A stretch of DNA of 64,000 nt from Candidatus Nanoarchaeia archaeon (GCA_041489925.1 JBGPSD010000004.1:25143-89142); one strand, 5' to 3'; counted from the first letter of the stretch, positions 8,796-60,004 are shown. The notes: generated by a model from the letters alone, not told the origin. A program made the numbers and translations.

Positions 8796-9079
8796 GCAGG
8801 TATTTATACTTTTCTTTTGAGCAGACTGCATATCACACCCCATCGTTTCTTATGGAGAAATGGAAGTATTGGTTGTGTTGTATGTATGTATTGTATAGTA
8901 AAATATGTATATTATGTAGTATTTGTTCATGAAGCGAGGTTTTATATATTAATTAATATCTTTCTATATAATAAATAATAATGTGTTTAAAAACAACTCA
9001 AAAACATATATTTAAAAATAACTACTACAATATACCTATTATAAACAAATAAAACACACGTTCGACGATAAAAATGATG

Positions 9080-9093: not shown

Positions 9094-9169
9094 TGGCGGG
9101 GTCACCCTTCGCCGTCTTAATTGTTGCTACTCCTCGATACTAAAAAATCAAAAGCTTTATATAGCGCAC

Positions 9170-11866: not shown

Positions 11867-11887
11867 TCAAAAACGTTTGCCTGCTGT

Positions 11888-12289
11888 TTATATACCTTTC
11901 GCTGCGCTGAGCAATGCGTCAAGCAGCCTTCCGCTTTCCAGTGCAAGCTTCTTGCTCACCACGAACTGGGAGACTGTGACGTCAAGCTCGTCAGGATGCA
12001 GGAATCTCCATTCTTCGCGCGCAAAACGGACAGCGATGTATGGCTCTGCGCCTGTTATTTTGGCATACTCTTTCAGGTCGTCAACTTCCTCTTTTGTCAA
12101 ATACTGGCTGTCACTTTTTGTGGTCTTGCATTCTATCGCGAGCATCCTTTTGTTTTTTGAGGCGAGAATGTCAGGGACAGGGTATTTTATGCTTCCTGAG
12201 CCGGCAACTCTTGACGCAGCCCATTCTTTTGCCCAGAACAAGTGCACCAATTCCCTTTCTGCGCCTGTTCCTTTTGTTTTTGCGCCCAT
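11888..12289 (-). CDS. hjc: Holliday junction resolvase Hjc
   Basis: Hjc-like motifs are GAERELV, PDILAS and LAIECK (E-x-K). ORF 11888..12307 is trimmed to the ATG at 12289, which is 27 nt from the centre of the TATA at 12312-12322. 12307 remains possible. Confidence 0.85.
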   Translation of the reverse strand: MGAKTKGTGAERELVHLFWAKEWAASRVAGSGSIKYPVPDILASKNKRMLAIECKTTKSDSQYLTKEEVDDLKEYAKITGAEPYIAVRFAREEWRFLHPDELDVTVSQFVVSKKLALESGRLLDALLSAAKGI

Positions 12290-12311: not shown

Positions 12312-12322
12312 TTTATATATAA
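12312..12322. promoter_or_regulatory. Shared TATA box (tttatatataa) between divergent hjc and the histone gene
   Basis: It is the only AT-rich element in the 65-nt gap. It lies about 27 nt from the hjc ATG at 12289 and about 38 nt from the histone ATG at 12355, which has an SD-like ggggtga. Confidence 0.45.
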
Positions 12323-24917: not shown

Positions 24918-25880
24918 TCAGCTAGTTGCAGGCGTCTCAACTGGAGTTTCCCCTGAGCTCTTGACTGTCAGTTGTGTCTGCTTGTATTCTTCGTAGTCAT
25001 ATGTTACATCAATGCTTATCTGCTGTTCAAAGTCTGTCCTTGAGGTTACTGTCTGTGTGCATGTCACAATCTTCTTTCCTTCGTAGAGTGTCATAAATCC
25101 TGCTGCCTTTGTCCCTGTTGTTGTGAGCGGGGTGCAAACCAGCCCTGGCATTCCTGTGTCAACGCTCACATAAACCTTGTTTTCCTTTGCCCTGGTGCTC
25201 CTGTCGCATACAGAGCCCTGCTCAAATATCTGTCCTGTTCCTGCGTTGGAGATTTCAAAGCTGAAGCTGAGCTTGTCCTTTCCGCGCGCTGTCTCTTTTA
25301 CAGCTCCGACCTGCACTGGCGCCCCTGAGTTCTTGGCGTCTTTGTCCTCGTTGATTTCGCAGATTCCGCCTGCCTCTGGCGCGAGCAGGTTTGAACGTAT
25401 GCAAATCTTGCTGGCTGCCTGCGTCAGGTATGTGTAGCAGATGTCTGCGCGCAATGGGAATGTGACCTGTGAGCCTGATATTGGTGAGAAGTGGTTGAGC
25501 CCTGTGAATTCAATTGTTGACTGGCTTCCCGGGAGAATGTTTCCCTGCGCGTCCTTTTTAACGCCCATGAGCTCTTCTGAGCTTGCCTTTGTCAGCTCTT
25601 CCTCGTGCTTGCTGAATTCTGCAGGGTTGATTCCTGAAATCTTCACCCTTACCCTGCCTGTTGCAACAGTTGCCTCTCCCTTGTTTTCAATCTTGACAAC
25701 AACATCAAATGGGTCCCTTCCGCCGTCAAACACAGCGCTGCGGAAATCAAGGAAGTCAGCAACAAGACCTGCTGTGCCGCCAACAAAAGGCGATCCGAGG
25801 TCAACAGTCTCTCCTGTTTTTCCTCCAGTGCACGCAGTAAGCATTGCAAGAAGAACAATTATCGCTATAATCTTTCGCAT
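24918..25880 (-). CDS. Surface lipoprotein, paralog 3 of a three-member family (two NxG beta-sandwich-like modules)
   Basis: MRKIIAIIVLLAMLTAC lipobox. It shares ICYTYLTQAASKICI, SGAPVQVGAV and FSFEISNAGTGQI blocks with the two upstream genes. TATA (minus-strand tttatata, 25903-25910) lies about 26 nt from the ATG at 25880. 25886 and 25913 are alternative starts. Confidence 0.65.
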   Translation of the reverse strand: MRKIIAIIVLLAMLTACTGGKTGETVDLGSPFVGGTAGLVADFLDFRSAVFDGGRDPFDVVVKIENKGEATVATGRVRVKISGINPAEFSKHEEELTKASSEELMGVKKDAQGNILPGSQSTIEFTGLNHFSPISGSQVTFPLRADICYTYLTQAASKICIRSNLLAPEAGGICEINEDKDAKNSGAPVQVGAVKETARGKDKLSFSFEISNAGTGQIFEQGSVCDRSTRAKENKVYVSVDTGMPGLVCTPLTTTGTKAAGFMTLYEGKKIVTCTQTVTSRTDFEQQISIDVTYDYEEYKQTQLTVKSSGETPVETPATS

Positions 25881-25937
25881 AGGCATTTCCGAGGATAATT
25901 GGTATATAAACATTTCTATGGCGTATTTGTTTCTGGC

Positions 25938-26909
25938 TTATACGCCAGGCAGAATTGTAAGGTCCTGGAACAGCGAGTCCTTGTATCCATAGCGCAGGTT
26001 TACTGTTATCGGGCTCACATATGTTGCCTCTCCGCGCGGCCTGTCAAACTCGCAGTACACAACTCCCTGCCTGTTTGTCAGCCTTATGTGGCCTGAGTCA
26101 AGCGGCCTGCAGCTTCCCCTTATGGAAACTCCGCTCACGCTCACATCCCCAAGTTCAACATAGTCAACCTCGTCAAAGCCGAGCTGGCCTCCTGGTGCGC
26201 ATTTGTTGAGCATAGACCCGCCTGACCTGAAGACTTCTCCTCCTCCGACATTCTGGACATGTATCTTGAACCTTGTCTTGCCCGGGCTTGCGTCAACCTC
26301 TATTGTGTTTACCGAGATTGGCGCTCCCTGTCCGCCTCCAAGCCCGACATTCTGGGGTATGCAGACCTTTTGTATTACTGCAGCGGCATATGGCTCAGGG
26401 TCAATGCAGACATTTGCAGAGGCAACTGTCTCGTATTCATAGCACGCTGTTGCGAGAAGCCTTACCGGATACCTGTCTGTCAGCACCCGCGTCATTGCCT
26501 TGAATGAGACAGTGTCAAAGCCTCCCTGGCTGATGAACTGAGTCCTTCCCTCAAGCAATGGTATCTGTTCGCCTGCTGGTGAAATTCCGCTGATTATTGA
26601 CGGGTCAAAACCTGAGACATAAACGCGGTCTCCTGGCCCGCCAACAGTGTAAGTGCCCCTGTTTTCAAGTTCAAGGACAACCGCAAGCTGTTCTCCTGAG
26701 AAAAGCCTTGTTGGCGGCATGTTCTGGCTGAACCTCATCGCGAGCCCTTGCGAGCCTGTCCTGAATTCCTGGACAAAGGTCTGCTGTGTCTTGGATACTG
26801 TTCCAGACGTGCAGCCTGCGAGCAATAGTATGAGCATGATTCCTAAAACCAGGATTGCCTTTCGCATTGTGTTCAAGCCCGATTTTGAATTATATAAATG
26901 TTTGGTCAT
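25938..26909 (-). CDS. Surface lipoprotein, paralog 2
   Basis: Lipobox LLLAGC with shared blocks ACYEYETVASANVCID, GQGAPISVNTI and FKIHVQNVGGGEV. An ATGA overlap with the upstream gene occurs at 26906-26909. An internal ATG at 26867 gives a canonical signal peptide. Confidence 0.65.
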   Translation of the reverse strand: MTKHLYNSKSGLNTMRKAILVLGIMLILLLAGCTSGTVSKTQQTFVQEFRTGSQGLAMRFSQNMPPTRLFSGEQLAVVLELENRGTYTVGGPGDRVYVSGFDPSIISGISPAGEQIPLLEGRTQFISQGGFDTVSFKAMTRVLTDRYPVRLLATACYEYETVASANVCIDPEPYAAAVIQKVCIPQNVGLGGGQGAPISVNTIEVDASPGKTRFKIHVQNVGGGEVFRSGGSMLNKCAPGGQLGFDEVDYVELGDVSVSGVSIRGSCRPLDSGHIRLTNRQGVVYCEFDRPRGEATYVSPITVNLRYGYKDSLFQDLTILPGV

Positions 26910-27829
26910 TGTTGAAGTGCAGGCAGTAGTTTCACCTGCGTTGTTTTGCTTGCAATGTAGCCATAATCAAGCGCGACTGCGAGCGGGGCAGTGTATGTTC
27001 CAAGCCTTGAGTCAATCCCCTCTTCCACCTGGCAGATGACTTTTGTCTCACCCTGCGGCTTTATCTTGACTGTCTGGGGCGCGCAGGTCATTGGGCTGTC
27101 AGAGAGAACTGCGCCTACAGAAACAACATTCCATCCCCCTTCTCCAAGGGACCGTCCTGAGCACGCGTCGCGGTAGAGCGGGGATGATACAATCTGTCCG
27201 CTTCCCTGGTTCTTGAGAGTGAGTGTGAATTCAGGTATTACCCTGCCTGGCATTTCGTGCGGCGTCATCCTCTGGTCAACTGCTGCGACAGCGACAGGAG
27301 CGCCCTGCCCCTGCGGGAATGACTGCGCTTTTGCCGTGCAGACCTTGTCTGTTTTCTTTCCTGTTAGGTCTGTGTCTATGCACACTATTATTGCAGCGTT
27401 GGTAACATATGGATAGCAGGCATTGAATGTGATTGTGGTCGTGTAGCCCTGCAGCTGCGGCCCAAGCGCCTTTGTGGTGAATGGCAGGTTAACCTGTGTC
27501 TCCATTCCCTGCGGTATGAATTCTGACTTGCCCCTGACAATAAACCTGCCCTGCTGCTTGGGGGTGTAAAGGTATTGGGGCTCATAGCTGATTGAGAAAA
27601 CCCCTTCGTCAACATCTGTTGCGCCGAGGTTTGAGAGTGTTGTGAGCATTGTGAACTTGCTGTTCTCATAAACTTCAGGCGGAGGGGAATAAGGGGTGAA
27701 ATAAATTTCAACGCCCTGGTTGCCTATTTTTACTTCAGGCAGCGACATTGTGCTTTTGCTCTGGAAAAGCCCGTACTGGCAGCCCGCGAGCAGGACCAGA
27801 ATCATTGCCAGCGTGATTATTTTTTTCAT
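26906..27829 (-). CDS. Surface lipoprotein, paralog 1
   Basis: MKKIITLAMILVLLAGC lipobox with shared blocks ACYPYVTNAAIIVCID, GQGAPVAVAAV and FTLTLKNQGSGQI. ATGA overlap with the upstream gene. Confidence 0.65.
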   Translation of the reverse strand: MKKIITLAMILVLLAGCQYGLFQSKSTMSLPEVKIGNQGVEIYFTPYSPPPEVYENSKFTMLTTLSNLGATDVDEGVFSISYEPQYLYTPKQQGRFIVRGKSEFIPQGMETQVNLPFTTKALGPQLQGYTTTITFNACYPYVTNAAIIVCIDTDLTGKKTDKVCTAKAQSFPQGQGAPVAVAAVDQRMTPHEMPGRVIPEFTLTLKNQGSGQIVSSPLYRDACSGRSLGEGGWNVVSVGAVLSDSPMTCAPQTVKIKPQGETKVICQVEEGIDSRLGTYTAPLAVALDYGYIASKTTQVKLLPALQQ

Positions 27830-29379
27830 GCTGTTGCCTGCGGTTGTGATTCCCGCACTGTTGCGCTTGTTGTGCGCTCAAGCCTGTAGCGGTATTGCAC
27901 GCTTGCCTTGAAGTTCTGCACTCCAAGAGGCGCCTTGCCAAGCACTTTTTCAGAGTTTTCAATATCAATCGGGATGCGGAATGTCTTCATTGTGAGGTTT
28001 TTGTAAATTGCCTTTGAAAGCTCTTCTGTTGTTAGCGCGTAAACCTTTACAAGGGTGTCATCGCATGTTGCGCGCTCTTCTTCAGCCATGGCATCGCAGC
28101 TTGACTCAGTTATGCCAACTCCTTCAATATTGGCAATCTTCAGCCCTGCAGGAATTATTATGAACACATTTGTTAGGTCAAGCACTTTGCCTTCCCACGC
28201 ATTCTCAATTGTGAGCCCAAGGCTTGACAGCGGGTCTCCTGATGCTCCAATTGCAACAGGCTGCTGGCCGATTGACATTCCGATGCGCACAGGACCTGAT
28301 GTGTAAATTGCAATGGGATTCTTGTCAGGGATGTTTGCAAGAGGGTCAACATTCTGCCTCCTGTACTCCTTCAGCCTTTCCATGTCAATCATGTATGCCT
28401 TGAGATATGCTCTTGTTACAAATTCAAAATCAGCCCTAAGCCGCAAGGTGTGGCTGCCTTTTGGAAGTACTCCCTTGTTCCATATGCAGTCGATGTCATA
28501 CTGGCCTGAAGTCAGGACTGAGAATGACTCTTTTGGACGCACCACGCTTGCAGTGGTGTTTGAGTCTGCGTCGCACAGGATGTTTATGTTGAGCTCTTTG
28601 TCAATTGTTTCTGCTTTCATCGTGGCATATGCCATTACAGGGGTGTTGTCGTAAAATATTGGCTCAGAAGTCCTGAAGTTTTCAAGATAAACACCAAGGC
28701 GTTTTTTTGCAGCAGTGTCAACCTGGCCTGTGTAATAATCCCCTGTTGCCAGCCTATAAGAGCGGGTGGCTTCCTCTGTAAACATTGATGTTGTTTGTTT
28801 GCCATAATTTATCAGGTTTGTCCAGCCTTCCTGCGCTTTTTCCCAGGAATAGCTTAACACCATGCTTGGGCTCAGGCTGTTTGGCATTGGATAGCCGCTC
28901 TCCTGTGCGTATTGCTGGATGTTTGGGAAAAGCATGAACATGACTATGAAAAACCAGAGGATTGTGTAGCCGAGTGAGAACCAGGTTGGAGCTGCCTGTG
29001 TTGCGAATACGACTGCGAGCAGCCAGAATGGCGCAATAATCATCATTATTGCCGCGAGGTATTTTATTGCAGGGAAATAATTCGGGGCTATTGACCAAAG
29101 AGGGCCCCAGACATAGGCAATGAGCGCTATGATTACCAGGCTTTTTGTGCCGACATCCTTGAATGCCTCGAGCTTGTTTGCAATTAAAAAGACAACGCCA
29201 TAAAAGAAAGCGAACCCGAGCCACAGCCCTGGGCTTCCTGAGTTTCCTCCAATCGGGAAAGGCAGTGTGCCATAGCGTACGAAGCAGTCAAAAAAATGCA
29301 AAATAATAACCAATCCGAGGAACCCAACCAGTGACTTTCCTCCTGACGAAGGAGTTCCTGCTGGGGCAGGCATTTTCAC
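27826..29379 (-). CDS. Polytopic membrane protein (about 5 N-terminal TM helices) with a large extracytoplasmic beta-rich domain
   Basis: 517 aa. The first ~170 aa are hydrophobic helices and the remainder is a Cys-containing soluble domain. The GTG start at 29379 overlaps the upstream stop (GTGA). The ATG at 29373 is an alternative. Confidence 0.6.
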   Translation of the reverse strand: MKMPAPAGTPSSGGKSLVGFLGLVIILHFFDCFVRYGTLPFPIGGNSGSPGLWLGFAFFYGVVFLIANKLEAFKDVGTKSLVIIALIAYVWGPLWSIAPNYFPAIKYLAAIMMIIAPFWLLAVVFATQAAPTWFSLGYTILWFFIVMFMLFPNIQQYAQESGYPMPNSLSPSMVLSYSWEKAQEGWTNLINYGKQTTSMFTEEATRSYRLATGDYYTGQVDTAAKKRLGVYLENFRTSEPIFYDNTPVMAYATMKAETIDKELNINILCDADSNTTASVVRPKESFSVLTSGQYDIDCIWNKGVLPKGSHTLRLRADFEFVTRAYLKAYMIDMERLKEYRRQNVDPLANIPDKNPIAIYTSGPVRIGMSIGQQPVAIGASGDPLSSLGLTIENAWEGKVLDLTNVFIIIPAGLKIANIEGVGITESSCDAMAEEERATCDDTLVKVYALTTEELSKAIYKNLTMKTFRIPIDIENSEKVLGKAPLGVQNFKASVQYRYRLERTTSATVRESQPQATA

Positions 29380-30545
29380 TCCACCCGCACATCAACGCTG
29401 ATTATGTTGAGGTCAGCCATTGGTTCTATTCCGATGAAGTTGTTTCCGTCCCTGACCACTTCTGAGATGTCGCGTCCAAACTTGGGGGCTTTCTGCGAGA
29501 GCACATCAAGCCTTCCGTTCACATTGGTCTGGGCTTCCTTCAGCTGTCCGTCATCCACAAACTCAATCTCAAGTATTGCGTGCGCCTTTCCTGTTACGAT
29601 TGCGTTGTAGACATCGGATTTTACGAAGAAGAAATCAGAGTATCCCTTTGTGGGCTTGACAAATGTCTTTATCTTTATCTGCTCTATGCGCGCATTGCCT
29701 GAAGCGAGCCTGAAGCCGAGGGTGTTCTTTCCTGCTGCAAAGTCCTCCTTGAAGAGGTCCTCGCGCCCTGGGTTTTCGCATACCGGGACTGCAGAGTAAA
29801 TCACTTTTCCATTAAGCGTGATGTCAAGCACTCCGACAGTGTTCTGGTCGCAAATAGGGTAGAATCCAAGGTATGCTGTCTCAATGTTCTGGTGCTCTGC
29901 TTCAGGGATGCTGAACGCGTTTGCAGCCTGCTGTTTCTTGAGGTCTGTTATTTCGCCGATTATCTTCACGTCCTCCATGTTGTACTGGCGCTTGAATATG
30001 AGCCCAAAGCCCCACACCTGGAATTCAACAGAGTTTTCTGTCTTCAGCAATCCCCTTGGTATTGGTATCGGGTTAGGGTTCTGCACATTGATTGTGTTTT
30101 CAAATACAGGAACGCCATTGAATATTATTTTCAGCCTTCCACGCCTTATTGGCGTCTGGAATATGAGGAAGACATTGTCAACGCTTTCAAGGTCAGATAT
30201 GTAGAAGCTGACATTCCTGAACTGCCTGCTGAACCATCCTTTCTTAATGATAAATGGCGGAGCGTCTGCCATTACTTTTGCCTGGCGTTCCTCTGAAAGC
30301 AAAATGTTTGGAATGACGTGCTGGAATTCTGTCTGGCCGATATATGCCAGCCTGCCTGGCGCTCCCTTGAAGATTGTTTCGCCGCCTTCAGGAATTACCC
30401 CTGGCACGACTCCTTCCTGTTCTTCCTGCAGTAATTCCTTGCGCTCTGCCGGAGGGAGGAAAAGGATATAGAATATTATCAGGAGAGTGATGATGCCAAC
30501 CAGTGTCGATGCTGCTGAACCGCTTGCCTGTCCGCGTTTTCTCAC
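29376..30545 (-). CDS. Pilin-like protein with a class III (prepilin-type) signal peptide, 389 aa
   Basis: ORF 29376..30575 has no ATG. The GTG at 30545 lies 5 nt after the SD GGTGA (30551-30555) and gives MRKRGQASGSAASTLVGIITLLIIFYILFL. It is the first gene of the minus-strand operon. Confidence 0.6.
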   Translation of the reverse strand: MRKRGQASGSAASTLVGIITLLIIFYILFLPPAERKELLQEEQEGVVPGVIPEGGETIFKGAPGRLAYIGQTEFQHVIPNILLSEERQAKVMADAPPFIIKKGWFSRQFRNVSFYISDLESVDNVFLIFQTPIRRGRLKIIFNGVPVFENTINVQNPNPIPIPRGLLKTENSVEFQVWGFGLIFKRQYNMEDVKIIGEITDLKKQQAANAFSIPEAEHQNIETAYLGFYPICDQNTVGVLDITLNGKVIYSAVPVCENPGREDLFKEDFAAGKNTLGFRLASGNARIEQIKIKTFVKPTKGYSDFFFVKSDVYNAIVTGKAHAILEIEFVDDGQLKEAQTNVNGRLDVLSQKAPKFGRDISEVVRDGNNFIGIEPMADLNIISVDVRVE

Positions 30546-30667
30546 TTTATTCACCTTCTTTTTGTAAACGAGCAAATTCGTACATATATAAATGTATTGC
30601 CCTGTTTTACCGCAACCTTTTTAAGCACCGTTCACTACTTTTTAGTTAGAATACAGGGGGATTTGGT

Positions 30668-31189
30668 ATGAAACAGCTTCGACTGCTTGCACTTGCAATT
30701 GTGATGGTTCTTTCAGCTTTCAGTGTTTCTGCGTATTATTATGCAGACGACTATTATGACAATTATTATCCTGCTTATGGCAATGATTACAGCAGCTCAT
30801 ATTCGCGCTCCTCTAATTCAGAGAGTGTGAGTGTCCGCGAGTCAGAGAGTGAGAGCTCTTCAACAACCAGCGGCAGGGGAAGATATTATAATTCGGCAAA
30901 CACTTATAATTACGGCCGCTCGCGCGAGTTCACATTCTCACGAAGCTCAGAGACAGTGAGCGAGAGCAGTTCTTCAAATGGCGGATATTCTCCTTCAAGC
31001 AATTATTATTATGACGGCATTGATTACCAGTATCCATACCAGGATGTTGGCACTGATTATGGCTATGATTATCGGCCGTTCTCTGATTATTATGAGTACA
31101 GCCGTTCAGGTCCTTATTACAACCCTTATCGGTACTCGCGTGTGGGCGCGTACGAATCTGAATATCCGCCCTACGGCTACGGGTACTGA
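30668..31189 (+). CDS. Secreted Tyr/Ser-rich low-complexity protein
   Basis: Sec signal peptide (…SAFSVSA). By my hand count the mature part has about 36 Tyr in about 150 residues. It starts YYYADDYYDNYY and ends YPPYGYGY. Confidence 0.7.
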   Translation: MKQLRLLALAIVMVLSAFSVSAYYYADDYYDNYYPAYGNDYSSSYSRSSNSESVSVRESESESSSTTSGRGRYYNSANTYNYGRSREFTFSRSSETVSESSSSNGGYSPSSNYYYDGIDYQYPYQDVGTDYGYDYRPFSDYYEYSRSGPYYNPYRYSRVGAYESEYPPYGYGY

Positions 31190-31192
31190 CAT

Positions 31193-31828
31193 ATGAAAAA
31201 AACAGCACTTTTTTTCCTCATTGCATTGCTTCTTGTTGAGATTGTCTCTGCAAAAGTTTTCTATTATGCAGACGAGACTGACTACAATAACAATGTTGAT
31301 TATGCATTAAGCCATCCTTACTCAGGAGTTGACCCTGATGTTGTTGGTGACTTCAGGAATTATGCCTGCATTTCCCTTAATGATTACAACAGTTTTGCAC
31401 AGGCAGGCAGCTATGATACCTATGACGCGCTTGACGCAAGCACTGCATCGCGCGATGATTTGAAAAAGCTCAGGCGCGCAGACCAGCTCAGGATTGTTAA
31501 CGAAGACCCTTATGACAGCCTTGACCGCGAGGATATTGACGACAATTATGCTGACTGGAACTGCTACACTCTCAAGGACTATAATTCTCTTGCAAGGCAA
31601 AATCCTTATGACAGCAGGCGCGTTGTTGACTTCACTCACTTTGATGACATTTACGAAGTCCAGGAAATCGGCAAGTACAGGTATAACAATTTCTTCCAGC
31701 CAGACGACTTCAACAAGTTCAACCTGCAGTACACGCAGGCAAGGCAGCCATACTACGAGCCATACGATTACCGGGATTCTCCGTATCCGCTTTACGGCTA
31801 TGGCATTGTGCGCCGTGAAGATTATTAA
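31193..31828 (+). CDS. Secreted Asp/Tyr-rich protein, distant paralog of the preceding gene
   Basis: Signal peptide (…VEIVSA). The mature part starts KVFYYADETDY and ends SPYPLYGYGIVRREDY. An internal repeat is present: NYACISLNDYNSFAQAGSYD / DWNCYTLKDYNSLARQNPYD. Confidence 0.7.
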   Translation: MKKTALFFLIALLLVEIVSAKVFYYADETDYNNNVDYALSHPYSGVDPDVVGDFRNYACISLNDYNSFAQAGSYDTYDALDASTASRDDLKKLRRADQLRIVNEDPYDSLDREDIDDNYADWNCYTLKDYNSLARQNPYDSRRVVDFTHFDDIYEVQEIGKYRYNNFFQPDDFNKFNLQYTQARQPYYEPYDYRDSPYPLYGYGIVRREDY

Positions 31829-33062: not shown

Positions 33063-33866
33063 ATGATTGTCAAAGAAGAATTTTTGAGCAAGCTCCGTCG
33101 ATATTTCTCATTGAACCTCTATGAGGTCAAGATTTGGACGGCGCTTCTTTCCCGTGGTGTTGCAACCGCAGGAGAACTTTCTGACATTGCAAACGTTCCA
33201 AGGTCAAGGAGCTATGACGTCCTTGAAAGCCTTGAGCGCAAGGGATTTGTCATAATGAAGCTCGGCAAGCCAATCAAGTACATTGCGGTTCCACCGCAGG
33301 AAGTGCTTGAGCGTGTCAAGAAGAACATGAAAGAAGAGGCAGACGAAAAAGTCAAGCGCCTCGAGCAGCTCAAAACAACAGATGTCCTCAACGAGCTTAA
33401 CCTGCTCCACACGCAGGGAATCGAGCTTATCGAGCCGGCTGACCTTTCAGGTTCGCTGCGCGGACGACACAACCTCTACTCGCACCTCGAGCTCACCATT
33501 AGGAACGCCGAGAAGAGCGTGACCATAATGACAACCTCACAGGGCTTCCTCAGGAAAGTTGAAGGCCTGAAGCCGGTCTTTGAGAAGCTGAAGCGAAAGG
33601 GAGTCAAGGTCCGCATCGCAGCCCCGATGACAAAGGAGACAAGAGATGCATTGAAGGATGTCTCTGAAGTCGCAGAGGTCAGGCACACTGATTCCAAGGC
33701 AAGGTTTGTTGTTGTTGACGGCAAAGACATCGTGTTTATGATCCTGGACGACAAGGAAGTCCACCCGACGTATGACGTTGGAATATGGGTCAACACGCCG
33801 TTCTTCGCGTCAGCAGTAGAGAACCTGTTCGACACTGCCTGGAAGAACATGAAGCCAGGCAAGTAA
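33063..33866 (+). CDS. TrmB-family transcriptional regulator (paralog 2)
   Basis: 267 aa with SD ggggggaggt upstream. The wHTH region is identical in protein to the 9237 paralog, and 53 consecutive nt are identical. Confidence 0.85.
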   Translation: MIVKEEFLSKLRRYFSLNLYEVKIWTALLSRGVATAGELSDIANVPRSRSYDVLESLERKGFVIMKLGKPIKYIAVPPQEVLERVKKNMKEEADEKVKRLEQLKTTDVLNELNLLHTQGIELIEPADLSGSLRGRHNLYSHLELTIRNAEKSVTIMTTSQGFLRKVEGLKPVFEKLKRKGVKVRIAAPMTKETRDALKDVSEVAEVRHTDSKARFVVVDGKDIVFMILDDKEVHPTYDVGIWVNTPFFASAVENLFDTAWKNMKPGK

Positions 33867-40455: not shown

Positions 40456-40464
40456 TTTATATAA
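40456..40464. promoter_or_regulatory. Single TATA box (tttatataa) equidistant from two divergent start codons
   Basis: The centre at ~40460 is 27 nt from the minus-strand ATG at 40433 and 27 nt from the plus-strand ATG at 40487. Confidence 0.5.
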
Positions 40465-41613: not shown

Positions 41614-43551
41614 ATGGGAAAAAAGAGGTTGTTGGCGCTAATTACATTTCTGGCTCTCCTAGGCGCATCTGCAGCAGCAGGCGCTACTGTTGCAGGATAT
41701 GCTGAAGAATACATTTATACAAACCCCGGATGCATCCCTTTTTGTTTTGGAAATAACAAAACATACGACCTTGGCGGAACATTCCAGATTTTTGAAGCGA
41801 CAAAAGTGGGTGGCCACTATAACCATGAGGCAGAGTGGTTTGACGGCGGACTTGCGCTCTTTGCTGACAATGTCCAAACAGCGACCTGGTCATTTTTGGG
41901 AGCTGCAAACAGCGCTCTGCAGACATATTACCATGATTTTAACGGCGCATATGCAGACCGCGTTGTTGCCTGCGGCTGCAGTTATGACTACCACCAGGGT
42001 ACCCACCCTTTTTCAATACGATTCAACAGGAATACCTTTGTCAGAAGGACAAATGTATTAGACGACCCAGACGAGCCGCTCGGTGAGGCTGGAAGCTTCT
42101 TTACTAAGTTTTCAAACCTGACCAATGATTCAGGATGGAGGATAAGAGTGGATGCTGTCCGCCCAGGCTCAATGGTTTGGCTTGGCGATGAGGAAAGCTA
42201 CACCACGCATGAAACCTCTGATGTGACTGCTAAAGTGTATGGCTGCGCAGACACAAACCAAAACCAAATCTGCGATGTTAGAGAGCCGAGCTTCATGTTA
42301 TGCAATGATGTGGGCGGCGACTGGTACAATGACTGGTGTTGCGGAACAAACTTCACAGAAGGATTTGTGAAATCAGTGCCGAATCTGACAACCCAGGTGT
42401 GCGCTCAATATGCATATCTTGGTAGCGCGTGTGTGCGTTGGATGACTGTTGTCGGTAACAAGAGCATTAATGCCATTTGCGGAAAGACTTCTGAAGGAAA
42501 ATGGAAGTGGGCTCCGCTTGATGAGTCTGGTGAGGTTTTTGACCTGCTCGGCTGGCCAAATGCGTCTGTTGTTTCTGATGGAACAAATCTTTACAGCTGC
42601 GGAAACCAGATTGAAAACTATACCGTGCCTGATGATGTTTACGGAGTGTGCGTTAAAACAGAGAGGCAAAGAGTGTGCACGCCTTCGTGGTTTGGTCAGT
42701 CATGTTCTTATCAGGATGTTTGCGTGAAAAAAGAGTACTTGTGGAGAAGCACAGTGCTTATCAACAGCCCTGCAACAACCCTGTTTGGGCAATTCATCAG
42801 TGTCGCTGTCGGCAATGCAAGGCATATGTATTCCTGCAAGGATAAGGTTGTTTACGAATGCTCTGGCAAGACAGGGTCTTTCTCAACAAACAATGGCGCT
42901 GAGATGGGCACAACAAACCCGAGCTTTACTAATGAAACATTTTACTGCGCATCTGACGGTGACTGGACAAAAGACCTTGACATAAAGGACAATGAGAGCT
43001 GCGAGGCAGCAGGATTTTCATGGACAGGCTCGCGCTGCTGCAGCGAGGCAGATGACCCTGCAGAATACTACAATGACCCCAAGTTCCCAAATGCAACAGG
43101 CGGCTGCTGGAACAAGATGTATGTCAGGTCAGGCGATTACGCAGTTACTGACAGGATTCTCAACTACAATGGCAAATTCTTCGGCTGCAGACTCAGCCTG
43201 ATAAATGATGCAATCCTGCTTAATCTCAAGGATTACCACGTGGATAACCTGCTTATTGACAACAGCATAACCCCCTGCGGCATGGTGCTTATGGATGCCC
43301 AGCCAGGGGGAATGCCCCACGCAAAGTGCCAGCCAAATGGCCAGTGGATGTTTACTGACGAGCCTGGCGGAGTAATCAATAAGAGCATAAAGTGGGCAGG
43401 CCTTGTCGGATCGGGAATAGCATTGTCAGGCTGTTGCGCTCCAGACCAGTGCTGGAATGGCACAAAATGCCAGAAGCTCGGTACTTATTACAGGCTTGGC
43501 GAAGAGGGTTTCATTTGCAAGATGCTGCCGTCAACTTCAATGCCGCCATAA
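41614..43551 (+). CDS. Large secreted Cys/Trp-rich protein (645 aa to the first stop) of unknown family
   Basis: Sec signal peptide MGKKRLLALITFLALLGASAAAG. It has more than 40 Cys and many N-x-S/T sequons. The reading frame stays open and motif-bearing for 56 codons past the TAA at 43549-43551. Confidence 0.7.
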   Translation: MGKKRLLALITFLALLGASAAAGATVAGYAEEYIYTNPGCIPFCFGNNKTYDLGGTFQIFEATKVGGHYNHEAEWFDGGLALFADNVQTATWSFLGAANSALQTYYHDFNGAYADRVVACGCSYDYHQGTHPFSIRFNRNTFVRRTNVLDDPDEPLGEAGSFFTKFSNLTNDSGWRIRVDAVRPGSMVWLGDEESYTTHETSDVTAKVYGCADTNQNQICDVREPSFMLCNDVGGDWYNDWCCGTNFTEGFVKSVPNLTTQVCAQYAYLGSACVRWMTVVGNKSINAICGKTSEGKWKWAPLDESGEVFDLLGWPNASVVSDGTNLYSCGNQIENYTVPDDVYGVCVKTERQRVCTPSWFGQSCSYQDVCVKKEYLWRSTVLINSPATTLFGQFISVAVGNARHMYSCKDKVVYECSGKTGSFSTNNGAEMGTTNPSFTNETFYCASDGDWTKDLDIKDNESCEAAGFSWTGSRCCSEADDPAEYYNDPKFPNATGGCWNKMYVRSGDYAVTDRILNYNGKFFGCRLSLINDAILLNLKDYHVDNLLIDNSITPCGMVLMDAQPGGMPHAKCQPNGQWMFTDEPGGVINKSIKWAGLVGSGIALSGCCAPDQCWNGTKCQKLGTYYRLGEEGFICKMLPSTSMPP

Positions 43552-43731: not shown

Positions 43732-44931
43732 ATGATGGGAATGAAATGGGTTTGGGCATTGGTATTTTTGATACTTGCAGTTCTGCCATTTGTTGCCGCA
43801 GAAGACCAGGCTGACTGGTTCGCAATTCCGATACGCTACTCTTGGGACCTGTCAATGGGTGGCTCGTGCGAAAACAGCACCCAGTGCCTCATACACCTGC
43901 TCGGAAACGACACTTATGACGGCGACATCCAAAGATATTTCCAGCAGTTGGAAACACCCTGGCTCGGTCCGAGGTGTGCAAACAATTCGCAGTACATACT
44001 TGATTATTCCTGTGATGCAGGAAACTGGACAACACGCACAAAATATCTTGCGCTTTACCTTTTGAAATATGCTGAGGCAAATTCAGCAGGCGCATTCACA
44101 CTTTACTGCGACACTTACGAGCGCGTGCTGAACCAGTTCAGTTATTATGTGAAGAACGTGCTTGTGTCTGATTATTTCGGAGATGCCTGCGTCATTCAGG
44201 GAAAGACTGTTCCCTGCATTAACAAAATCTGCGTGCTGAGAACGCCCCAGGTTGTTGCAATCGGGACCACAATCAATGGCCCAATCAATGACCCTGCCCG
44301 CTCATTCCTGCTTGCGCTGAATGAAAGCACTTCATTGTGCGACGGCCACGATGCTGAGCACGGAACTGATTTCACAAAATGTGACGCTGAAAAGCCGGTG
44401 TGGTATAACCCCTCATTGCAGGCGGTTGTCTGGCTTTCAGAAGGCTCCCTTGCCCCGCCAACAGCAGACACCAGGGCAAAAATCACAGCGCCAATGGGCA
44501 GCATGAGCTCTTATGTGATGAATGTCCTGCACAATGAGGCAAATCCCGGCATGAATTTCATTTATTTCCCGCGCACAAGATTGTTCAACCACATTTATGT
44601 TGCGCAGAACGGCCCGCGTGGGATATTTGGCTTCCTTGAGGCAGGCTTGCGCCCCGAGTACACGCTCTTGCCTGACAATGAGTCAGAGCCAATCCCGCTT
44701 GACTACATCGGTGTGCGTTACACAGGAATAGAGCTGTATGAACACAGCAACCTCACCTGCCTGAATCTCATCAAGAGGTATGACAGAAATGCATTCTGCG
44801 AAAACCAGACAGCAACAGGATTCAATGTAATCGCAAGGCACCGCTGCGAGCCTGGCTATGAGGATCGATGCAATGGCGCAAGCCCGATTGTTGGCGTGTG
44901 GCCTGCCTTGGCAGGAAAGCTGAGGCCATGA
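43732..44931 (+). CDS. Secreted Cys-rich protein (399 aa) of unknown family
   Basis: Signal peptide MMGMKWVWALVFLILAVLPFVAA, multiple sequons and cysteines, and SD agagga upstream. Confidence 0.7.
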   Translation: MMGMKWVWALVFLILAVLPFVAAEDQADWFAIPIRYSWDLSMGGSCENSTQCLIHLLGNDTYDGDIQRYFQQLETPWLGPRCANNSQYILDYSCDAGNWTTRTKYLALYLLKYAEANSAGAFTLYCDTYERVLNQFSYYVKNVLVSDYFGDACVIQGKTVPCINKICVLRTPQVVAIGTTINGPINDPARSFLLALNESTSLCDGHDAEHGTDFTKCDAEKPVWYNPSLQAVVWLSEGSLAPPTADTRAKITAPMGSMSSYVMNVLHNEANPGMNFIYFPRTRLFNHIYVAQNGPRGIFGFLEAGLRPEYTLLPDNESEPIPLDYIGVRYTGIELYEHSNLTCLNLIKRYDRNAFCENQTATGFNVIARHRCEPGYEDRCNGASPIVGVWPALAGKLRP

Positions 44932-46244
44932 AAATGAAAGCGCAGCTTACGCTGATGATGCTAATGGGGCTTGTAATGCTTATCGCGGTTGGAATTGTTT
45001 TGTACATCGGCGGGTCTTCAATGACAAAAAGCACAGAGCGCGGAGCTGAGCAGCAGCGTTTGAGCCAGTCTGCAATCCAGACAATCAGGGATTATGTCCA
45101 CTCGTGCCTTGACGCAACGACAACTGCTGCATTGGACCTTATCGGAAAGCAGGGCGGAGTCCTCTACAGGGCGCAGGGCGGCTTGACTCCTGATATCCTG
45201 CCTTCAGACCCGCAGGGCGGGCGCCATGTTATTTATGACGGGCTGAATGTCAGCTACCTCATCCGCAGGCCTGGCCAGAATGTTGGCAGGCTTTACTTTG
45301 CAGAGCCCCCTGATTATCCATGGGTCACGTTCCCGTATGTCCTTAACAAATCAGACATGTCAGTCATGAGGACAACATACACTGGCTACTTTGGCATATC
45401 GCTTTTGCCCCCGCTTTTCAAGCCAGGCAAGGACTCCATCCAGGAACAGCTTGAATCATACATCAGCTTTAACCTTCCGCGCTGCACAGACTGGAGCTCA
45501 TTCAAGGGGCTTTCAATCACTGCTGACAAGCCAAATGTCTCTGTAATAATCGCAGAGAACAGGACGCAGATTGAAACCGAGCAGTATTTCTCAGTGGTTG
45601 CGAACTGGCAGGTGAACATCACTGACAGTTCCACAGGTTCCAACACCACACTTGACATGTTCTCGCGCGGTTATCCTGTCCACCTCGCAAAATTCTATGT
45701 TTTCGTGCAGAGCCTGATTTACAGCGAGATAAATGATTCGTCGTTTGACCCGCTCTCGCAAAGCTCGCCTGCAAGCCCCGTTTTTGTTTTCAAGGACATT
45801 TTCAAGAATCCTGAGGATGAGGGCGCTGATGACCTGATTATTGTAAAGGATGCAGAGTCAGAGTTGCGCGGCAAGCCATTGGAATTCAGGATACTGAGGC
45901 AGAACCGCTATCCTGCGCTCTTCTGGATAAACCAGTCTGACATCAACAGCTATGCGTTTTACAGGATGGGCGAATGCCCAGCAGAAGCGCAGTCAATATT
46001 CCTCGAAGGCAACCAGCTCAAAATCACTTATGCAACAGACTCTCCATATGAATGGTCTGGCACGCTTTCAGCAATTGACCCTGATGAGGACAATGTCAGC
46101 TACAGCATCAAGCCTGTGGACGGAAAAATAGACGCCCCGCCAAATGTCGCGCTGTTCATGCTGTATGTTTATGCCTCTGACGGCGGAAACACAAAGGATT
46201 ACCAGATTGTAAACCTGACACTGGCAGGTTGTCCTGAAGAATGA
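44928..46244 (+). CDS. Pilin-like protein with a class III signal peptide (438 aa)
   Basis: Internal ATG at 44928, overlapping the upstream stop as ATGA. The N-terminus is MKMKAQLTLMMLMGLVMLIAVGIVLYIGG. Confidence 0.6.
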   Translation: MKMKAQLTLMMLMGLVMLIAVGIVLYIGGSSMTKSTERGAEQQRLSQSAIQTIRDYVHSCLDATTTAALDLIGKQGGVLYRAQGGLTPDILPSDPQGGRHVIYDGLNVSYLIRRPGQNVGRLYFAEPPDYPWVTFPYVLNKSDMSVMRTTYTGYFGISLLPPLFKPGKDSIQEQLESYISFNLPRCTDWSSFKGLSITADKPNVSVIIAENRTQIETEQYFSVVANWQVNITDSSTGSNTTLDMFSRGYPVHLAKFYVFVQSLIYSEINDSSFDPLSQSSPASPVFVFKDIFKNPEDEGADDLIIVKDAESELRGKPLEFRILRQNRYPALFWINQSDINSYAFYRMGECPAEAQSIFLEGNQLKITYATDSPYEWSGTLSAIDPDEDNVSYSIKPVDGKIDAPPNVALFMLYVYASDGGNTKDYQIVNLTLAGCPEE

Positions 46245-56709: not shown

Positions 56710-56774
56710 GGATGGAATTAGCTGTTCTCCGTATATAAAACTTGCGGCGTATAAGCGTATAAGGGAATATATAT

Positions 56775-57614: not shown

Positions 57615-57626
57615 GAGGTGTTTGAA

Positions 57627-57968: not shown

Positions 57969-58037
57969 CACTAACCAAGGAGTAAAGCTTATATACCTAA
58001 ATATTTCCCGAAGCAACATTGTAAGAGGTGTTCAAAT

Positions 58038-60003: not shown

Positions 60004-60004
60004 G

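What the first reader, a model, noticed from the sequence alone, without database searches (positions are those of the whole stretch)
24918..30545. Five-gene surface operon: pilin-like protein, polytopic membrane protein and three paralogous double-module lipoproteins
All five minus-strand genes are joined by ATGA or GTGA overlaps, apart from a short gap before the last gene, which has its own TATA.

Gene 1 starts at a GTG 5 nt after GGTGA and gives MRKRGQ followed by a hydrophobic helix, i.e. a class III signal.

Gene 2 has about 5 TM helices and a 340-aa external domain.

Genes 3-5 are lipobox proteins (LLAGC, LLAGC, LTAC). They share ordered blocks: ACY.Y....A..(V/I)CI, (G/S)(G/Q)?GAP(V/I).V and F.(L/I/F).(L/V/I).N.G.G(Q/E)(I/V). 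Each has two N-x-G beta-sandwich-like modules reminiscent of CARDB-type domains.

I know of no described archaeal system with this composition. It could be a pseudo-periplasmic or cell-envelope scaffold, or an anchoring complex for a filament.
Basis: partly seen in the sequence, partly recalled or inferred. Interest (0 to 1): 0.7.

Follow-up and report, generated by a model that had tools for sequence, protein, structure and literature searches.

The report
Conserved Woesearchaeal five-protein envelope complex
Five adjacent genes encode an uncharacterised cell-surface complex that sits at the same genomic spot across Woesearchaeota-type DPANN archaea, and because its membrane subunit carries bacterial cell-wall-cutting enzymes in many relatives, it is a candidate for how these tiny archaea contact bacteria.

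Summary
The five minus-strand genes are real. Their order g1-g2-g3-g4-g5 is complete in 55 of 85 loci, and most of the rest are cut by contig ends. The cluster nearly always lies between Pelota and the RFC small subunit in Woesearchaeota/Nanoarchaeia MAGs.

The three lipobox proteins are clear paralogues (hhalign E 1e-32 to 1e-69). AlphaFold gives g4 two beta-sandwich domains (pLDDT 91). The g2 ectodomain looks like a fourth, remote paralogue (P = 2.5e-5, same strand pattern). g1 has a pilin-like K-R-G-Q N-terminus and at least two repeated modules.

Pfam, NCBIfam, PHROGs, PADLOC, PDB sequence profiles and Foldseek give nothing specific, only generic Ig-like tandems.

The main new clue concerns g2. 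Its family has 1313 cluster representatives, most of the best-scoring ones longer than the window protein. Of 48 long members, 26 carry SLT, and others carry M23, Amidase_2, Amidase_3, NlpC/P60 or glucosaminidase domains. So the complex probably presents murein hydrolases to bacterial cell walls. The window's own g2 lacks any hydrolase.

The function is inferred, not shown.

The parts
29376..30545 (-). g1: 389-aa bitopic or pilin-like protein. The N-terminus is M-R-K-R-G-Q, a short polar spacer, a 19-20 residue hydrophobic helix and then LPPxER. The beta-rich ectodomain has at least two homologous modules and two invariant Cys (C232, C256).
   Evidence: 118 homologues, all unnamed or 'hypothetical'. 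The alignment shows a conserved [KR][GA]Q...LIGII.LL.IFYILFLPP.ER. Module A versus module B gives hhalign E = 5e-11. No Pfam, NCBIfam or PDB hit.
27826..29379 (-). g2: 517-aa polytopic membrane protein (likely start ATG 29373). It has 5 TM helices (N-in, C-out), a long stalk helix (residues 171-211), an invariant GDYYTG motif (213-218) and a tandem beta-sandwich ectodomain (about 229-509) with conserved Cys pairs. It has no hydrolase domain.
   Evidence: AlphaFold mean pLDDT 84.4, ectodomain blocks mostly above 93. The family has 1313 representatives. Long members carry SLT, M23, Amidase_2, Amidase_3, NlpC/P60 or Glucosaminidase domains. hhalign against the merged g3-5 profile gives P = 2.5e-5.
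26906..27829 (-). g3: 307-aa lipobox protein (LLAGC, Cys codon 27779-27781) and first of the three paralogues. It overlaps g2 by ATGA.
   Evidence: LPAM_1 21.9 bits, above the cut-off of 20. BLASTP to g4 E = 2e-24. hhalign E = 3e-69 to the g4 family.
25938..26867 (-). g4: 309-aa lipobox protein (LLAGC, Cys codon 26811-26813). It is the most conserved of the five: the 120 listed hits are 47-99% identical. It has two beta-sandwich domains, each ending in a long strand or hairpin, and six conserved ectodomain Cys.
   Evidence: AlphaFold pLDDT 91.2, pTM 0.82. Foldseek gives only generic tandem Ig-like hits with TM at most 0.28.
24918..25880 (-). g5: 320-aa lipobox protein (LTAC, Cys codon 25830-25832) and third paralogue.
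   Evidence: BLASTP to g3 E = 1e-10 and to g4 E = 5e-13. hhalign E = 1e-32 to 1e-39. LPAM_1 19.9 bits against a cut-off of 20.
30585..30592 (-). TTTATATA promoter-like box upstream of g1. The GGTGA Shine-Dalgarno-like motif lies at 30551-30555, 5 nt before the GTG.
   Evidence: 11 copies in the window against 0.38 expected.
26891..26898 (-). TTTATATA box 23 nt upstream of the g4 ATG at 26867. This implies g4 has its own promoter and a leaderless or short-leader mRNA.
   Evidence: The g4 start is supported by homologue lengths.
25903..25910 (-). TTTATATA box 22 nt upstream of the g5 ATG at 25880.
30668..31828 (+). Two divergently transcribed small secreted Tyr/Ser/Asp-rich proteins (173 and 211 aa) between g1 and Pelota. 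They may be accessory, and they are found only in close relatives.
   Evidence: No family hits. Homologues sit at the same position in only 8 and 12 of the related loci and in L001.

Best explanation
The cluster encodes a vertically inherited cell-envelope complex specific to Woesearchaeota/Pacearchaeota-type DPANN archaea (GTDB Nanoarchaeota/Nanobdellota).

**Proposed architecture**
- g2 sits in the membrane through five TM helices. It projects a helical stalk and a two-domain Ig-like 'leg' outward.
- Three lipid-anchored paralogues (g3, g4, g5) have the same two-domain, disulfide-stabilised architecture. They are proposed to assemble around or alongside the g2 leg into a hetero-oligomeric pillar.
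- g1 is held by a pilin-type N-terminal helix and adds further beta-modules.

**Proposed function**
- In many lineages the distal C-terminus of g2 carries a murein hydrolase: lytic transglycosylase, M23 endopeptidase, amidase, NlpC/P60 or glucosaminidase.
- The complex would therefore act as a platform that presents cell-wall-binding or cell-wall-cutting activity at the archaeal surface, to attach to or locally breach the peptidoglycan of bacterial partners or prey.
- In the window's lineage g2 has no hydrolase. Here the complex would be the bare scaffold or adhesion unit, or it would recruit a hydrolase in trans.

**Shown versus inferred**
- Shown: the genes, their paralogy, predicted folds, predicted topology, synteny and the hydrolase fusions.
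- Inferred: that the five products form one complex, that the complex is on the surface, and that it targets bacterial murein.
For: - **Synteny.** The order g1-g2-g3-g4-g5 is complete in 55 of 85 loci, and most others are truncated by contig ends. It persists where g2 identity is only 25-30%. Pelota lies directly upstream in 48 loci and RFC-S directly downstream in 67.
- **Coupling.** g1/g2 and g2/g3 overlap or nearly abut, which fits stoichiometric co-production.
- **Extracellular features.** The lipobox Cys is invariant and six further Cys are conserved in g3-5. g2 has Cys pairs in its ectodomain and an N-in, C-out arrangement by charge distribution.
- **Shared fold.** g4 (pLDDT 91) and the g2 ectodomain (pLDDT above 93) have the same two-domain strand pattern and return the same generic Foldseek targets: integrin alpha legs, complement MG domains, RbmA and transglutaminase barrels. 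hhalign of the g2 ectodomain against the merged g3-5 profile gives P = 2.5e-5 over 166 collinear columns.
- **Hydrolase fusions.** Among 48 long g2 relatives, SLT is found in 26 (best E = 5e-24), Peptidase_M23 in 3, Amidase_2 in 2, Amidase_3 in 1, NlpC/P60 in 2 and Glucosaminidase in 1.
- **Position of the hydrolases.** In every case checked individually the domain lies C-terminal to the core. Examples are P0378 (M23, 62.6 bits), P0371 (NlpC/P60, 32.1 bits), P0344 (SLT, 75.6 bits), L085 (Glucosaminidase, 71.6 bits) and L084 (SLT, 25.7 bits).
- **Same cluster.** Hydrolase-bearing g2 genes lie in the same five-gene cluster or neighbourhood.
- **Published speculation.** The literature independently suggests that Woese/Pacearchaeal 'murein-like lytic transglycosylase' proteins target bacterial walls (PMC8204110, PMC9723730).
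Against: - The window's own g2, and 48 of 68 g2 genes in the loci closest to it, have no hydrolase tail. Murein attack therefore cannot be the universal activity of the complex.
- No experiment, expression data or interaction prediction shows that the five proteins assemble.
- The g2-to-lipoprotein homology is only moderately supported: hhalign probability 75%, and single-family comparisons give P = 0.002-0.01.
- Strong sequence conservation and a fixed position among informational genes would fit a housekeeping envelope role equally well.
- No Woesearchaeal host is known. Whether these archaea touch bacteria at all is still speculation in the literature.
Confidence: 0.45

Rival explanations
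1. The complex is a housekeeping envelope scaffold. The five proteins would form a structural layer or pillar system that defines a pseudo-periplasm or anchors the outer sheath or S-layer of the archaeon itself. Hydrolase tails in some lineages would be secondary add-ons that simply use an exposed C-terminus.
For: - The cluster has a nearly invariant position among core informational genes.
- Sequence conservation is high: the 120 listed g4 hits are 47-99% identical.
- Hydrolase-less g2 is the majority form among the loci closest to the window.
- The folds are Ig-like 'leg' domains typical of structural surface proteins.
- Separate TATA boxes for g4 and g5 would allow higher expression of those subunits.
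Against: - There is no similarity to any known S-layer, SlaB-like or sheath family.
- Six different enzyme classes that all act on one substrate (murein) are fused at the same position, which is hard to explain as a neutral add-on.
- Lipid-anchored proteins of about 310 aa are small for lattice formers.
Confidence: 0.3
2. The complex is the base or anchor of a type IV pilus-like filament. g1 would be a large pilin or minor pilin processed by a prepilin peptidase, and g2-g5 would form its membrane and envelope base.
For: - The g1 N-terminus, [KR][GA]Q followed by a hydrophobic helix, is conserved across the family.
- It matches the K-K-[AG]-Q N-termini of other pilin-like ORFs in the same window, at 58038-58343 and 59942-63256.
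- From my own knowledge, archaeal class III signals with Q at +1 are known for EppA-type pilins.
Against: - Neither the cluster nor its conserved flanks contain a PilB/FlaI-type ATPase, a PilC/FlaJ-type platform or a prepilin peptidase.
- Pfam gave no class III signal or pilin hit for g1.
- An invariant LPP.ER motif follows the helix directly, and a variable polar spacer precedes it. This fits a stable signal anchor just as well.
- In archaea, class III signals also occur on non-filament surface proteins, such as the Sulfolobus sugar-binding proteins (my own knowledge).
Confidence: 0.1
3. The complex is an uptake or transport machine. The g2 TM domain would be a channel or permease, and the lipoproteins would be substrate-capture subunits for material scavenged from lysed cells, such as muropeptides.
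For: - The composition is a polytopic membrane protein plus several lipoproteins.
- TM1 of g2 carries nearly invariant polar residues, H28 and D31.
- Hydrolase tails would generate muropeptides close to the membrane.
Against: - The lipoproteins are beta-sandwich tandems, not the alpha/beta fold of substrate-binding proteins.
- No ATPase or known permease fold is present, and Foldseek found no match to the TM region.
- The TM region is the least conserved part of the family. Invariant columns in the long-form alignment are all in the ectodomain.
Confidence: 0.07

Closest known systems
Large 'murein-like lytic transglycosylase' proteins of Woesearchaeota/Pacearchaeota (fam00969 in Castelle et al. 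2021, PMC8204110; GH23 proteins in Vigneron et al. 2022, PMC9723730). NCBI annotates them 'transglycosylase SLT domain-containing protein'.
   Same: Long members of the g2 family carry exactly this annotation (P0344 and P0335 from Ca. Woesearchaeota, P0404 from Nanobdellota). They match the g2 profile at E around 1e-85 to 1e-97. The taxonomic range is the same.
   Different: The window's g2 has no SLT or other hydrolase domain. The papers I read treat these as single large enzymes. They do not describe the conserved TM-plus-tandem-beta-sandwich core, the five-gene cluster, the three paralogous lipoproteins or the swapping of hydrolase classes. I did not verify that fam00969 is the same family.
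Cell-wall hydrolases of monoderm conjugative type IV secretion systems (PrgK, TraG of pIP501: a TM anchor plus SLT and CHAP/NlpC-P60 domains). This comparison is from my own knowledge.
   Same: Both are membrane-anchored proteins that combine SLT and NlpC/P60-type domains to open peptidoglycan locally for an envelope machine. P0038 combines NlpC/P60 and SLT near threshold.
   Different: The cluster and its flanks contain no VirB4/VirD4 ATPases and no VirB6- or VirB8-like components. The core domains are unrelated. Here the wall being cut would belong to another organism.
WxL / WxLIP surface complexes of Enterococcus (PDB 9i1y, 9i25)
   Same: These are operon-encoded, multi-protein surface assemblies built from beta-sandwich modules that associate with peptidoglycan. 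WxLIP is among the Foldseek hits for g4 (E about 5e-4 to 7e-4).
   Different: The TM-scores are only 0.22-0.28. There is no sequence similarity, the anchoring differs, and the host organism is an archaeon without murein.
Integrin alpha thigh/calf 'leg' domains, complement MG domains and Vibrio RbmA (tandem Ig-like or FnIII-like sandwiches)
   Same: These are the best Foldseek matches for both g4 and the g2 ectodomain, with E down to 2e-7. They show that the fold class is a rigid tandem beta-sandwich.
   Different: The global TM-scores are only 0.1-0.3 with 6-13% identity. The resemblance is at the level of fold class, not family membership.
   Same: The N-x-G strand motif at the start of each module, and weak Pfam alignments to the first module of g3 and g5.
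   Different: The scores are 12.6 and 13.4 bits against a gathering cut-off of 22.7. g4 and g2 give no hit.

Membership tests
CARDB (PF07705) | Pfam HMM score at or above the gathering threshold (22.7 bits) | tested here: not met
   g3 scores 12.6 bits (E = 0.16) and g5 13.4 bits (E = 0.09). g4, g2 and g1 give no hit.
Bacterial-type lipoprotein (lipobox; Pfam LPAM_1 PF08139) | N-terminal signal peptide ending in [LVI][ASTVI][GAS]C, with a conserved Cys | tested here: met
   The sequences are LLAGC (g3), LLAGC (g4) and LTAC (g5). LPAM_1 scores 21.9 bits for g3 (above the cut-off of 20) and 19.9 bits for g5. The Cys is invariant in 74 sequences. A crude regex finds a lipobox-like Cys in 59 of 76, 66 of 84 and 65 of 78 orthologues.
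Bacterial-type lipoprotein (lipobox; Pfam LPAM_1 PF08139) | Actual lipid modification of the Cys and signal-peptide cleavage | not testable with these tools
   This needs mass spectrometry or labelling. The archaeal lipoprotein machinery was not searched for in this genome.
Archaeal class III signal peptide / type IV pilin-like protein | A charged N-terminus, [KR][GA] at positions -2/-1, then a hydrophobic helix of about 20 residues | tested here: inconclusive
   g1 reads MRKRG|QASGSAAS-TLVGIITLLIIFYILFL. The family consensus is [KR][GA]Q. Other ORFs in the window have similar K-K-[AG]-Q N-termini. Against this, a polar spacer of 0-8 residues precedes the helix, and Pfam gives no class III signal hit.
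Archaeal class III signal peptide / type IV pilin-like protein | A prepilin peptidase and an assembly ATPase and platform encoded with it, or cleavage demonstrated | tested here: not met
   No such genes are in the cluster or its conserved flanks. The rest of the genome was not available. Cleavage cannot be tested here.
Lytic transglycosylase, SLT/GH23 (PF01464) | An SLT domain in the protein | tested here: not met
   The window's g2 has no Pfam hit and ends 8 residues after its last strand. The domain is present in 26 of 48 long homologues and in L084.
S-layer / surface-layer protein families | A match to any S-layer Pfam or NCBIfam model, or to a solved S-layer structure | tested here: not met
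   No such hits appear or 54-56.
ABC transporter substrate-binding lipoprotein | A two-lobed alpha/beta SBP fold, with an adjacent permease and ATPase | tested here: not met
   The g4 model is all-beta with two sandwiches. The cluster has no ABC ATPase or permease.
Type IV secretion / conjugation system | VirB4/VirD4-type ATPases and VirB6-like components next to the hydrolase | tested here: not met
   The flanking genes are Pelota, TrmB, PheRS, RFC-S, a PRC-barrel protein, TyrRS and PAN in nearly all loci.
Anti-phage defence systems (PADLOC) and phage protein families (PHROGs) | A significant HMM hit | tested here: not met
   PADLOC gave none. PHROGs gave only two weak hits to unknown-function families, at E = 0.005-0.006.

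The most novel reading that the evidence does not exclude
The five genes encode a previously unrecognised, lineage-defining nanomachine of Woese/Pacearchaeales. It would be a membrane-anchored pillar built from four paralogous Ig-like legs (one on a 5-TM base, three lipid-anchored) plus a pilin-like subunit. Its distal tip is an exchangeable murein-hydrolase 'warhead'. That would make it the molecular interface by which these archaea attach to, and locally open, the cell wall of bacterial hosts. It would be the first concrete machinery for archaeon-on-bacterium episymbiosis or predation.
Probability: 0.3. Interest if true: 0.85.

Novelty: categorically new. Interest (0 to 1): 0.66.

Why it matters
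Woesearchaeota and Pacearchaeota are among the most abundant and diverse uncultured archaea. Their hosts and their means of attachment are unknown. The literature so far only notes isolated 'murein transglycosylase' genes as a hint that some may target bacteria.

This analysis places those enzymes in a core, syntenic five-gene module with a defined architecture. That yields testable objects:
- a complex to look for by cryo-ET;
- ectodomains and hydrolase tails to express and assay on bacterial sacculi;
- a marker locus (Pelota | g1-g5 | RFC-S) for comparing hydrolase-bearing and hydrolase-less lineages against candidate hosts.

It also adds a family of archaeal lipobox proteins whose triplication predates the divergence of the sampled lineages. 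If the complex turns out to be a purely structural envelope element, it would still be the first candidate envelope architecture for this clade.

Tried and rejected
- **Family libraries.** Pfam and NCBIfam scans of all five products and the two neighbouring small proteins gave only LPAM_1 and sub-threshold CARDB. PHROGs and PADLOC gave nothing useful.
- **PDB sequence profiles.** Searches with the g1, g2 and g4 alignments gave no hit with E below 0.1.
- **Foldseek.** g4 and g2 against the PDB, and g2 against BFVD, returned only generic tandem beta-sandwich matches with TM at most 0.3. Nothing matched the TM domain. I rejected integrin, complement, transglutaminase, AglB, DUF11 and WxLIP as meaningful homologues.
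- **Pairwise homology.** BLASTP of g1 and g2 against g3 found nothing. The first hhalign runs, g2 (A2) and g1 (A1) each against the g4-family alignment A3, were non-significant. Only larger merged alignments raised g2 against g3-5 to P = 2.5e-5. g1 stayed unrelated to the others.
- **Trans-acting hydrolase or pilus machinery.** I found none in the window. No SLT motif appeared in any ORF, and Pfam on ten large or pilin-like ORFs at 41.6-63.9 kb was uninformative.
- **ORF artefact, mobile element or virus origin.** I rejected these because of order-wide synteny among housekeeping genes.
- **ABC-SBP, protease and S-layer readings.** I rejected these (see the membership tests).
- **Literature.** Four full-text searches and five papers read turned up no description of the cluster. 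The searches were limited, so a description could exist elsewhere.
- **Limits.** I could not test taxonomic spread beyond the record titles.

Full report
**1. What is in the sequence**

The region 24918-30545 holds five consecutive minus-strand ORFs.

- **g1** (29376-30545, 389 aa from the GTG). It starts 5 nt after a GGTGA and reads (M)RKRGQASGSAAS-TLVGIITLLIIFYILFL-PPAER. Hydropathy finds a single N-terminal helix.
- **g2** (27826-29379, 517 aa). It overlaps the g1 stop by GTGA. Its homologues begin MP or MA, so the ATG two codons downstream (29373) is the likelier start, and the two genes then nearly abut.
- **g3** (26906-27829, 307 aa). It overlaps g2 by ATGA.
- **g4.** The longest ORF begins in an ATGA overlap with g3. 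However, the 120 listed homologues are mostly 307-312 aa and align from the inner ATG at 26867 (MRKAILVLG...).
- **g5.** It begins at the ATG at 25880 (MRKIIAII...).

The octamer TTTATATA occurs 11 times in the window against 0.38 expected from shuffles. Three of these copies are on the minus strand:
- 39 nt before the g1 GTG (30585-30592);
- 23 nt before the g4 ATG (26891-26898);
- 22 nt before the g5 ATG (25903-25910).

The most economical reading is three transcription units: g1-g2-g3, g4 and g5, the last two leaderless or nearly so.

**2. The proteins**

*The three lipoproteins.*
- g3, g4 and g5 carry LLAGC, LLAGC and LTAC lipoboxes. Pfam LPAM_1 scores 21.9 bits for g3, above its cut-off of 20, and 19.9 bits for g5.
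- The lipobox Cys is invariant in a 74-sequence alignment. Six further Cys positions are invariant too, which suggests three extracellular disulfides.
- They are unambiguous paralogues: BLASTP E = 2e-24, 1e-10 and 5e-13, and profile-profile E = 3e-69, 2e-32 and 1e-39.
- AlphaFold2 with the family alignment gives a confident g4 model (pLDDT 91.2, pTM 0.82). After the signal helix and a disordered linker there are two beta-sandwich domains, each closed by a very long strand or hairpin at residues 133-155 and 283-306.

*g2.*
- The model has mean pLDDT 84.4, with most ectodomain blocks above 93.
- It shows membrane helices between residues 14 and 160 and a 40-residue helix at 171-211. The invariant GDYYTG motif (213-218) follows, and then two beta domains with the same layout as g4, with long closing strands at 308-332 and 485-509.
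- Charge distribution fits an N-in, C-out topology.

*Is the g2 ectodomain related to the lipoproteins?*
- Pairwise BLAST sees no relation between g2 and g3.
- Single-family hhalign is marginal, with P = 0.002-0.01.
- The g2 ectodomain profile against a merged g3+g4+g5 profile gives P = 2.5e-5, probability 75%, over 166 collinear columns. The alignment pairs F.F.T.AY with ACY.Y.T.A, QPI.I with GAPV.V, LGITL.N.W.GKI with F.I.I.N.G.G.V, and the C-terminal Y.Y motifs.
- With the matching strand pattern and identical Foldseek target lists, I consider the g2 ectodomain a probable fourth paralogue.

*g1.*
- g1 is unrelated to the others.
- It contains at least two homologous internal modules: residues about 60-190 against 191-295 give E = 5e-11.
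- It has two invariant Cys.

**3. Database and structure comparisons**

- None of the five products reaches threshold in Pfam or NCBIfam apart from the lipobox model.
- PHROGs and PADLOC give nothing meaningful.
- Profile searches of PDB sequences are empty.
- Foldseek against the PDB returns tandem Ig-like or FnIII-like proteins for both models: integrin alpha legs, complement MG domains, RbmA, transglutaminase C-terminal barrels, AglB soluble domain and WxLIP. E-values reach 2e-7, but TM-scores are 0.1-0.3 and identity is 6-13%.
- BFVD hits are equally generic, and nothing matches the g2 membrane domain.
- The fold class is therefore clear, a rigid tandem of beta-sandwiches, but no family assignment follows.

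**4. Distribution and synteny**

- All named homologues come from Candidatus Woesearchaeota, Nanoarchaeota, Nanoarchaeia or Nanobdellota MAGs.
- A pattern-seeded scan of one genome per GTDB species found 116 genomes that encode a g4 relative. The closest, at 98% identity, is contig CAYGVI010000003.1. Its record title, 'uncultured Methanosarcinales archaeon', appears on many of the hit records, and I read it as a mislabel because the named relatives are Woesearchaeota/Nanoarchaeia MAGs.
- I called ORFs in the 85 related loci fetched and classified them with phmmer. Fifty-five of these loci, plus the window itself, show g1-g2-g3-g4-g5 in one orientation. Most of the remainder are cut by contig ends.
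- The three lipoprotein paralogues keep their order, so the triplication predates the divergence of these lineages.
- The surroundings are equally fixed. Pelota is divergent and directly upstream of g1 in 48 loci (median gap 92 nt). The RFC small subunit follows g5 in 67 loci (median gap 66 nt). PheRS and TrmB lie on one side, with PRC-barrel, TyrRS and PAN on the other.
- This is a stable, vertically inherited core-genome locus, not a mobile island.

**5. The functional clue**

- An exhaustive HMMER search with the g2 profile against 1.84 billion cluster representatives found 1313 relatives at E up to 1e-3, and 797 at E up to 1e-30. Most of the best 150 are longer than the window protein, at 600-1470 aa.
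- Pfam scans of 48 long members found the following:

| Pfam domain | Members (of 48) | Best E-value |
|---|---|---|
| SLT | 26 | 5e-24 |
| Peptidase_M23 | 3 | 7e-18 |
| Amidase_2 | 2 | 1e-29 |
| Amidase_3 | 1 | 6e-20 |
| NlpC/P60 | 2 | 1e-7 |
| Glucosaminidase | 1 | 6e-5 |

- A few members also carry PKD or fn3 modules.
- In the cases inspected individually, the enzyme lies C-terminal to the conserved core. These are P0344, P0335 and P0420 (SLT, 63-76 bits), P0378 (M23, 62.6 bits), P0371 (NlpC/P60, 32.1 bits), L085 (Glucosaminidase, 71.6 bits), L084 (SLT 25.7 bits plus fn3), and P0038 (NlpC/P60 and SLT, both just under threshold).
- These long genes sit in the same five-gene cluster (L004, L072, L073, L084, L085). 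The M23 form sits in the same PheRS-TrmB-Pelota neighbourhood.
- NCBI names such proteins 'transglycosylase SLT domain-containing protein [Candidatus Woesearchaeota archaeon]'.
[quoted passage not shown] 2021 (PMC8204110) and the GH23 genes behind the 'vampiristic' proposal of Vigneron et al. 2022 (PMC9723730). I did not verify family identity.
- Six enzyme classes are swapped onto one position, and their only common denominator is bacterial peptidoglycan. I read that as strong comparative evidence that the tip of g2 operates at a murein surface. From established biochemistry, amidases and SLT enzymes act on MurNAc-containing murein rather than pseudomurein, and DPANN archaea are not known to make murein. 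The target is therefore most likely a bacterial wall.
- The important caveat is that the window's g2 ends 8 residues after its last strand. Among the 68 g2 genes in the loci nearest the window, 48 have no tail, 9 have a tail of 31-150 aa, and 11 have more than 150 aa, of which 9 carry an SLT-like motif.

**6. Most likely mechanism**

I propose a hetero-oligomeric envelope pillar.
- g2 provides the membrane base, the stalk helix and one Ig-like leg.
- The three lipid-anchored paralogues provide equivalent legs.
- g1 is held by a pilin-type helix and contributes further beta-modules.
- The distal end of g2 is a docking or fusion point for murein hydrolases.
- In hydrolase-bearing lineages the complex would bind and locally open the bacterial wall at a contact site. 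In the window's lineage it would be the scaffold or adhesion version, or it would work with a separately encoded enzyme.

Shown here: the genes, paralogy, predicted folds and topology, synteny and fusions. Inferred: assembly into one complex, surface display and the bacterial target. I put the confidence at about 0.45.

Rivals are given in the structured fields:
- a housekeeping envelope scaffold with opportunistic hydrolase add-ons (0.3);
- a pilus base with g1 as pilin (0.1);
- an uptake machine (0.07).

On the class III signal, the conserved [KR][GA]Q motif recurs on other pilin-like ORFs of the window. That makes prepilin-type processing plausible. However, there is no Pfam support, no peptidase or ATPase nearby, and an invariant LPP.ER juxtamembrane motif that fits a permanent anchor equally well.

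**7. Comparison with what is known, and novelty**

- At the fold level the legs resemble integrin, complement and RbmA-type tandems.
- At the level of working logic, the nearest analogues are membrane-anchored wall hydrolases of monoderm conjugation systems (PrgK, TraG) and peptidoglycan-associated WxL/WxLIP complexes.
- Every membership test for a named family failed except the lipobox test.
- I found no description of the five-gene module in four full-text searches and five papers read. That is a limited search.
- I therefore rate it as lying outside described kinds of system, while stressing that its function is inferred from comparative genomics only.
- Interest is moderate to high. The finding turns a vague literature hint, isolated murein hydrolase genes in Woese/Pacearchaeota, into a defined, conserved and experimentally addressable module.

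Noticed in passing
window 30668-31189 and 31193-31828 (+): Two small secreted proteins with signal peptides and extreme Tyr/Ser/Asp/Asn-rich, low-complexity bodies (YYADDYYDNYYPAYGNDYSSSYS...). They lie between g1 and Pelota. Homologues are found at the same position in only 8 and 12 related loci, so they are a recent lineage-specific insertion into an otherwise fixed neighbourhood. No family hits.
   Followed up: partly
window-wide; 102-109, 8941-8948, 9156-9163, 11887-11894, 12312-12319, 25903-25910, 26891-26898, 30585-30592, 40456-40463, 56732-56739, 58779-58786: The octamer TTTATATA occurs 11 times against 0.38 expected. The three copies I examined sit just upstream of the g1, g4 and g5 starts, so it is evidently this organism's TATA-box consensus. 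The spacing of about 22-23 nt to the ATG of g4 and g5 suggests leaderless mRNAs. I did not check the other eight copies.
   Followed up: partly
window 57303-63884 (+): A run of ORFs with pilin-like N-termini: MDKKAQGLPITTIIIAILG at 58038-58343 (101 aa), MHKKGQFLGIPIPIILG at 59942-63256 (1104 aa) and MARKALIIGIIVLLII at 63246-63884. This may be a type IV pilus-like or adhesin gene set. Pfam was uninformative.
   Followed up: partly
window 46241-51319 (+): A 1692-aa secreted protein with only a sub-threshold bacterial TSP3 repeat hit. It is flanked by other unannotated secreted or membrane ORFs (41614-43551, 44868-46244, 51738-52913). This is a second block of surface 'dark matter'.
   Followed up: partly
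window 9237-10040 and 33063-33866 (+): Two TrmB-family regulator paralogues with nearly identical N-terminal helix-turn-helix segments (...WTALLSRGVATAGELSDIANVP). The second sits in the conserved Pelota-TrmB-PheRS block.
   Followed up: no
L006 (CAYGVI010000003.1) and many other loci: Many of the hit records are titled 'uncultured Methanosarcinales archaeon'. Their gene content and their closest named relatives are Woesearchaeota/Nanoarchaeia, so I read the titles as a systematic mislabel from a bulk MAG submission. I did not test this further.
   Followed up: no
L072 4651-6153 (g5 orthologue, 500 aa): One g5 orthologue carries a C-terminal extension of three Cys-rich repeats (CPGG..GCGG.SRE.L..CSG.W.Y..N.QY..WC...AGESR.YCY.C) with no Pfam hit. 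So the lipoprotein subunits can also acquire distal modules.
   Followed up: no
locus (JGI 3300072015, P0426): In the M23-bearing variant, the g1-like gene is 570 aa long. Two opposite-strand genes of 1446 and 186 aa, with no Pfam hit, are inserted between g2 and the presumed g3/g4 genes. The cluster can therefore be interrupted.
   Followed up: no
g2 residues 28 and 31 (window about 29287-29298) and 213-218 (window 28726-28743): Nearly invariant His28 and Asp31 lie inside TM1, and an invariant GDYYTG motif lies at the junction of the stalk helix and the ectodomain. These could be functional sites (ion or ligand binding, or a subunit interface) that nothing here explains.
   Followed up: no
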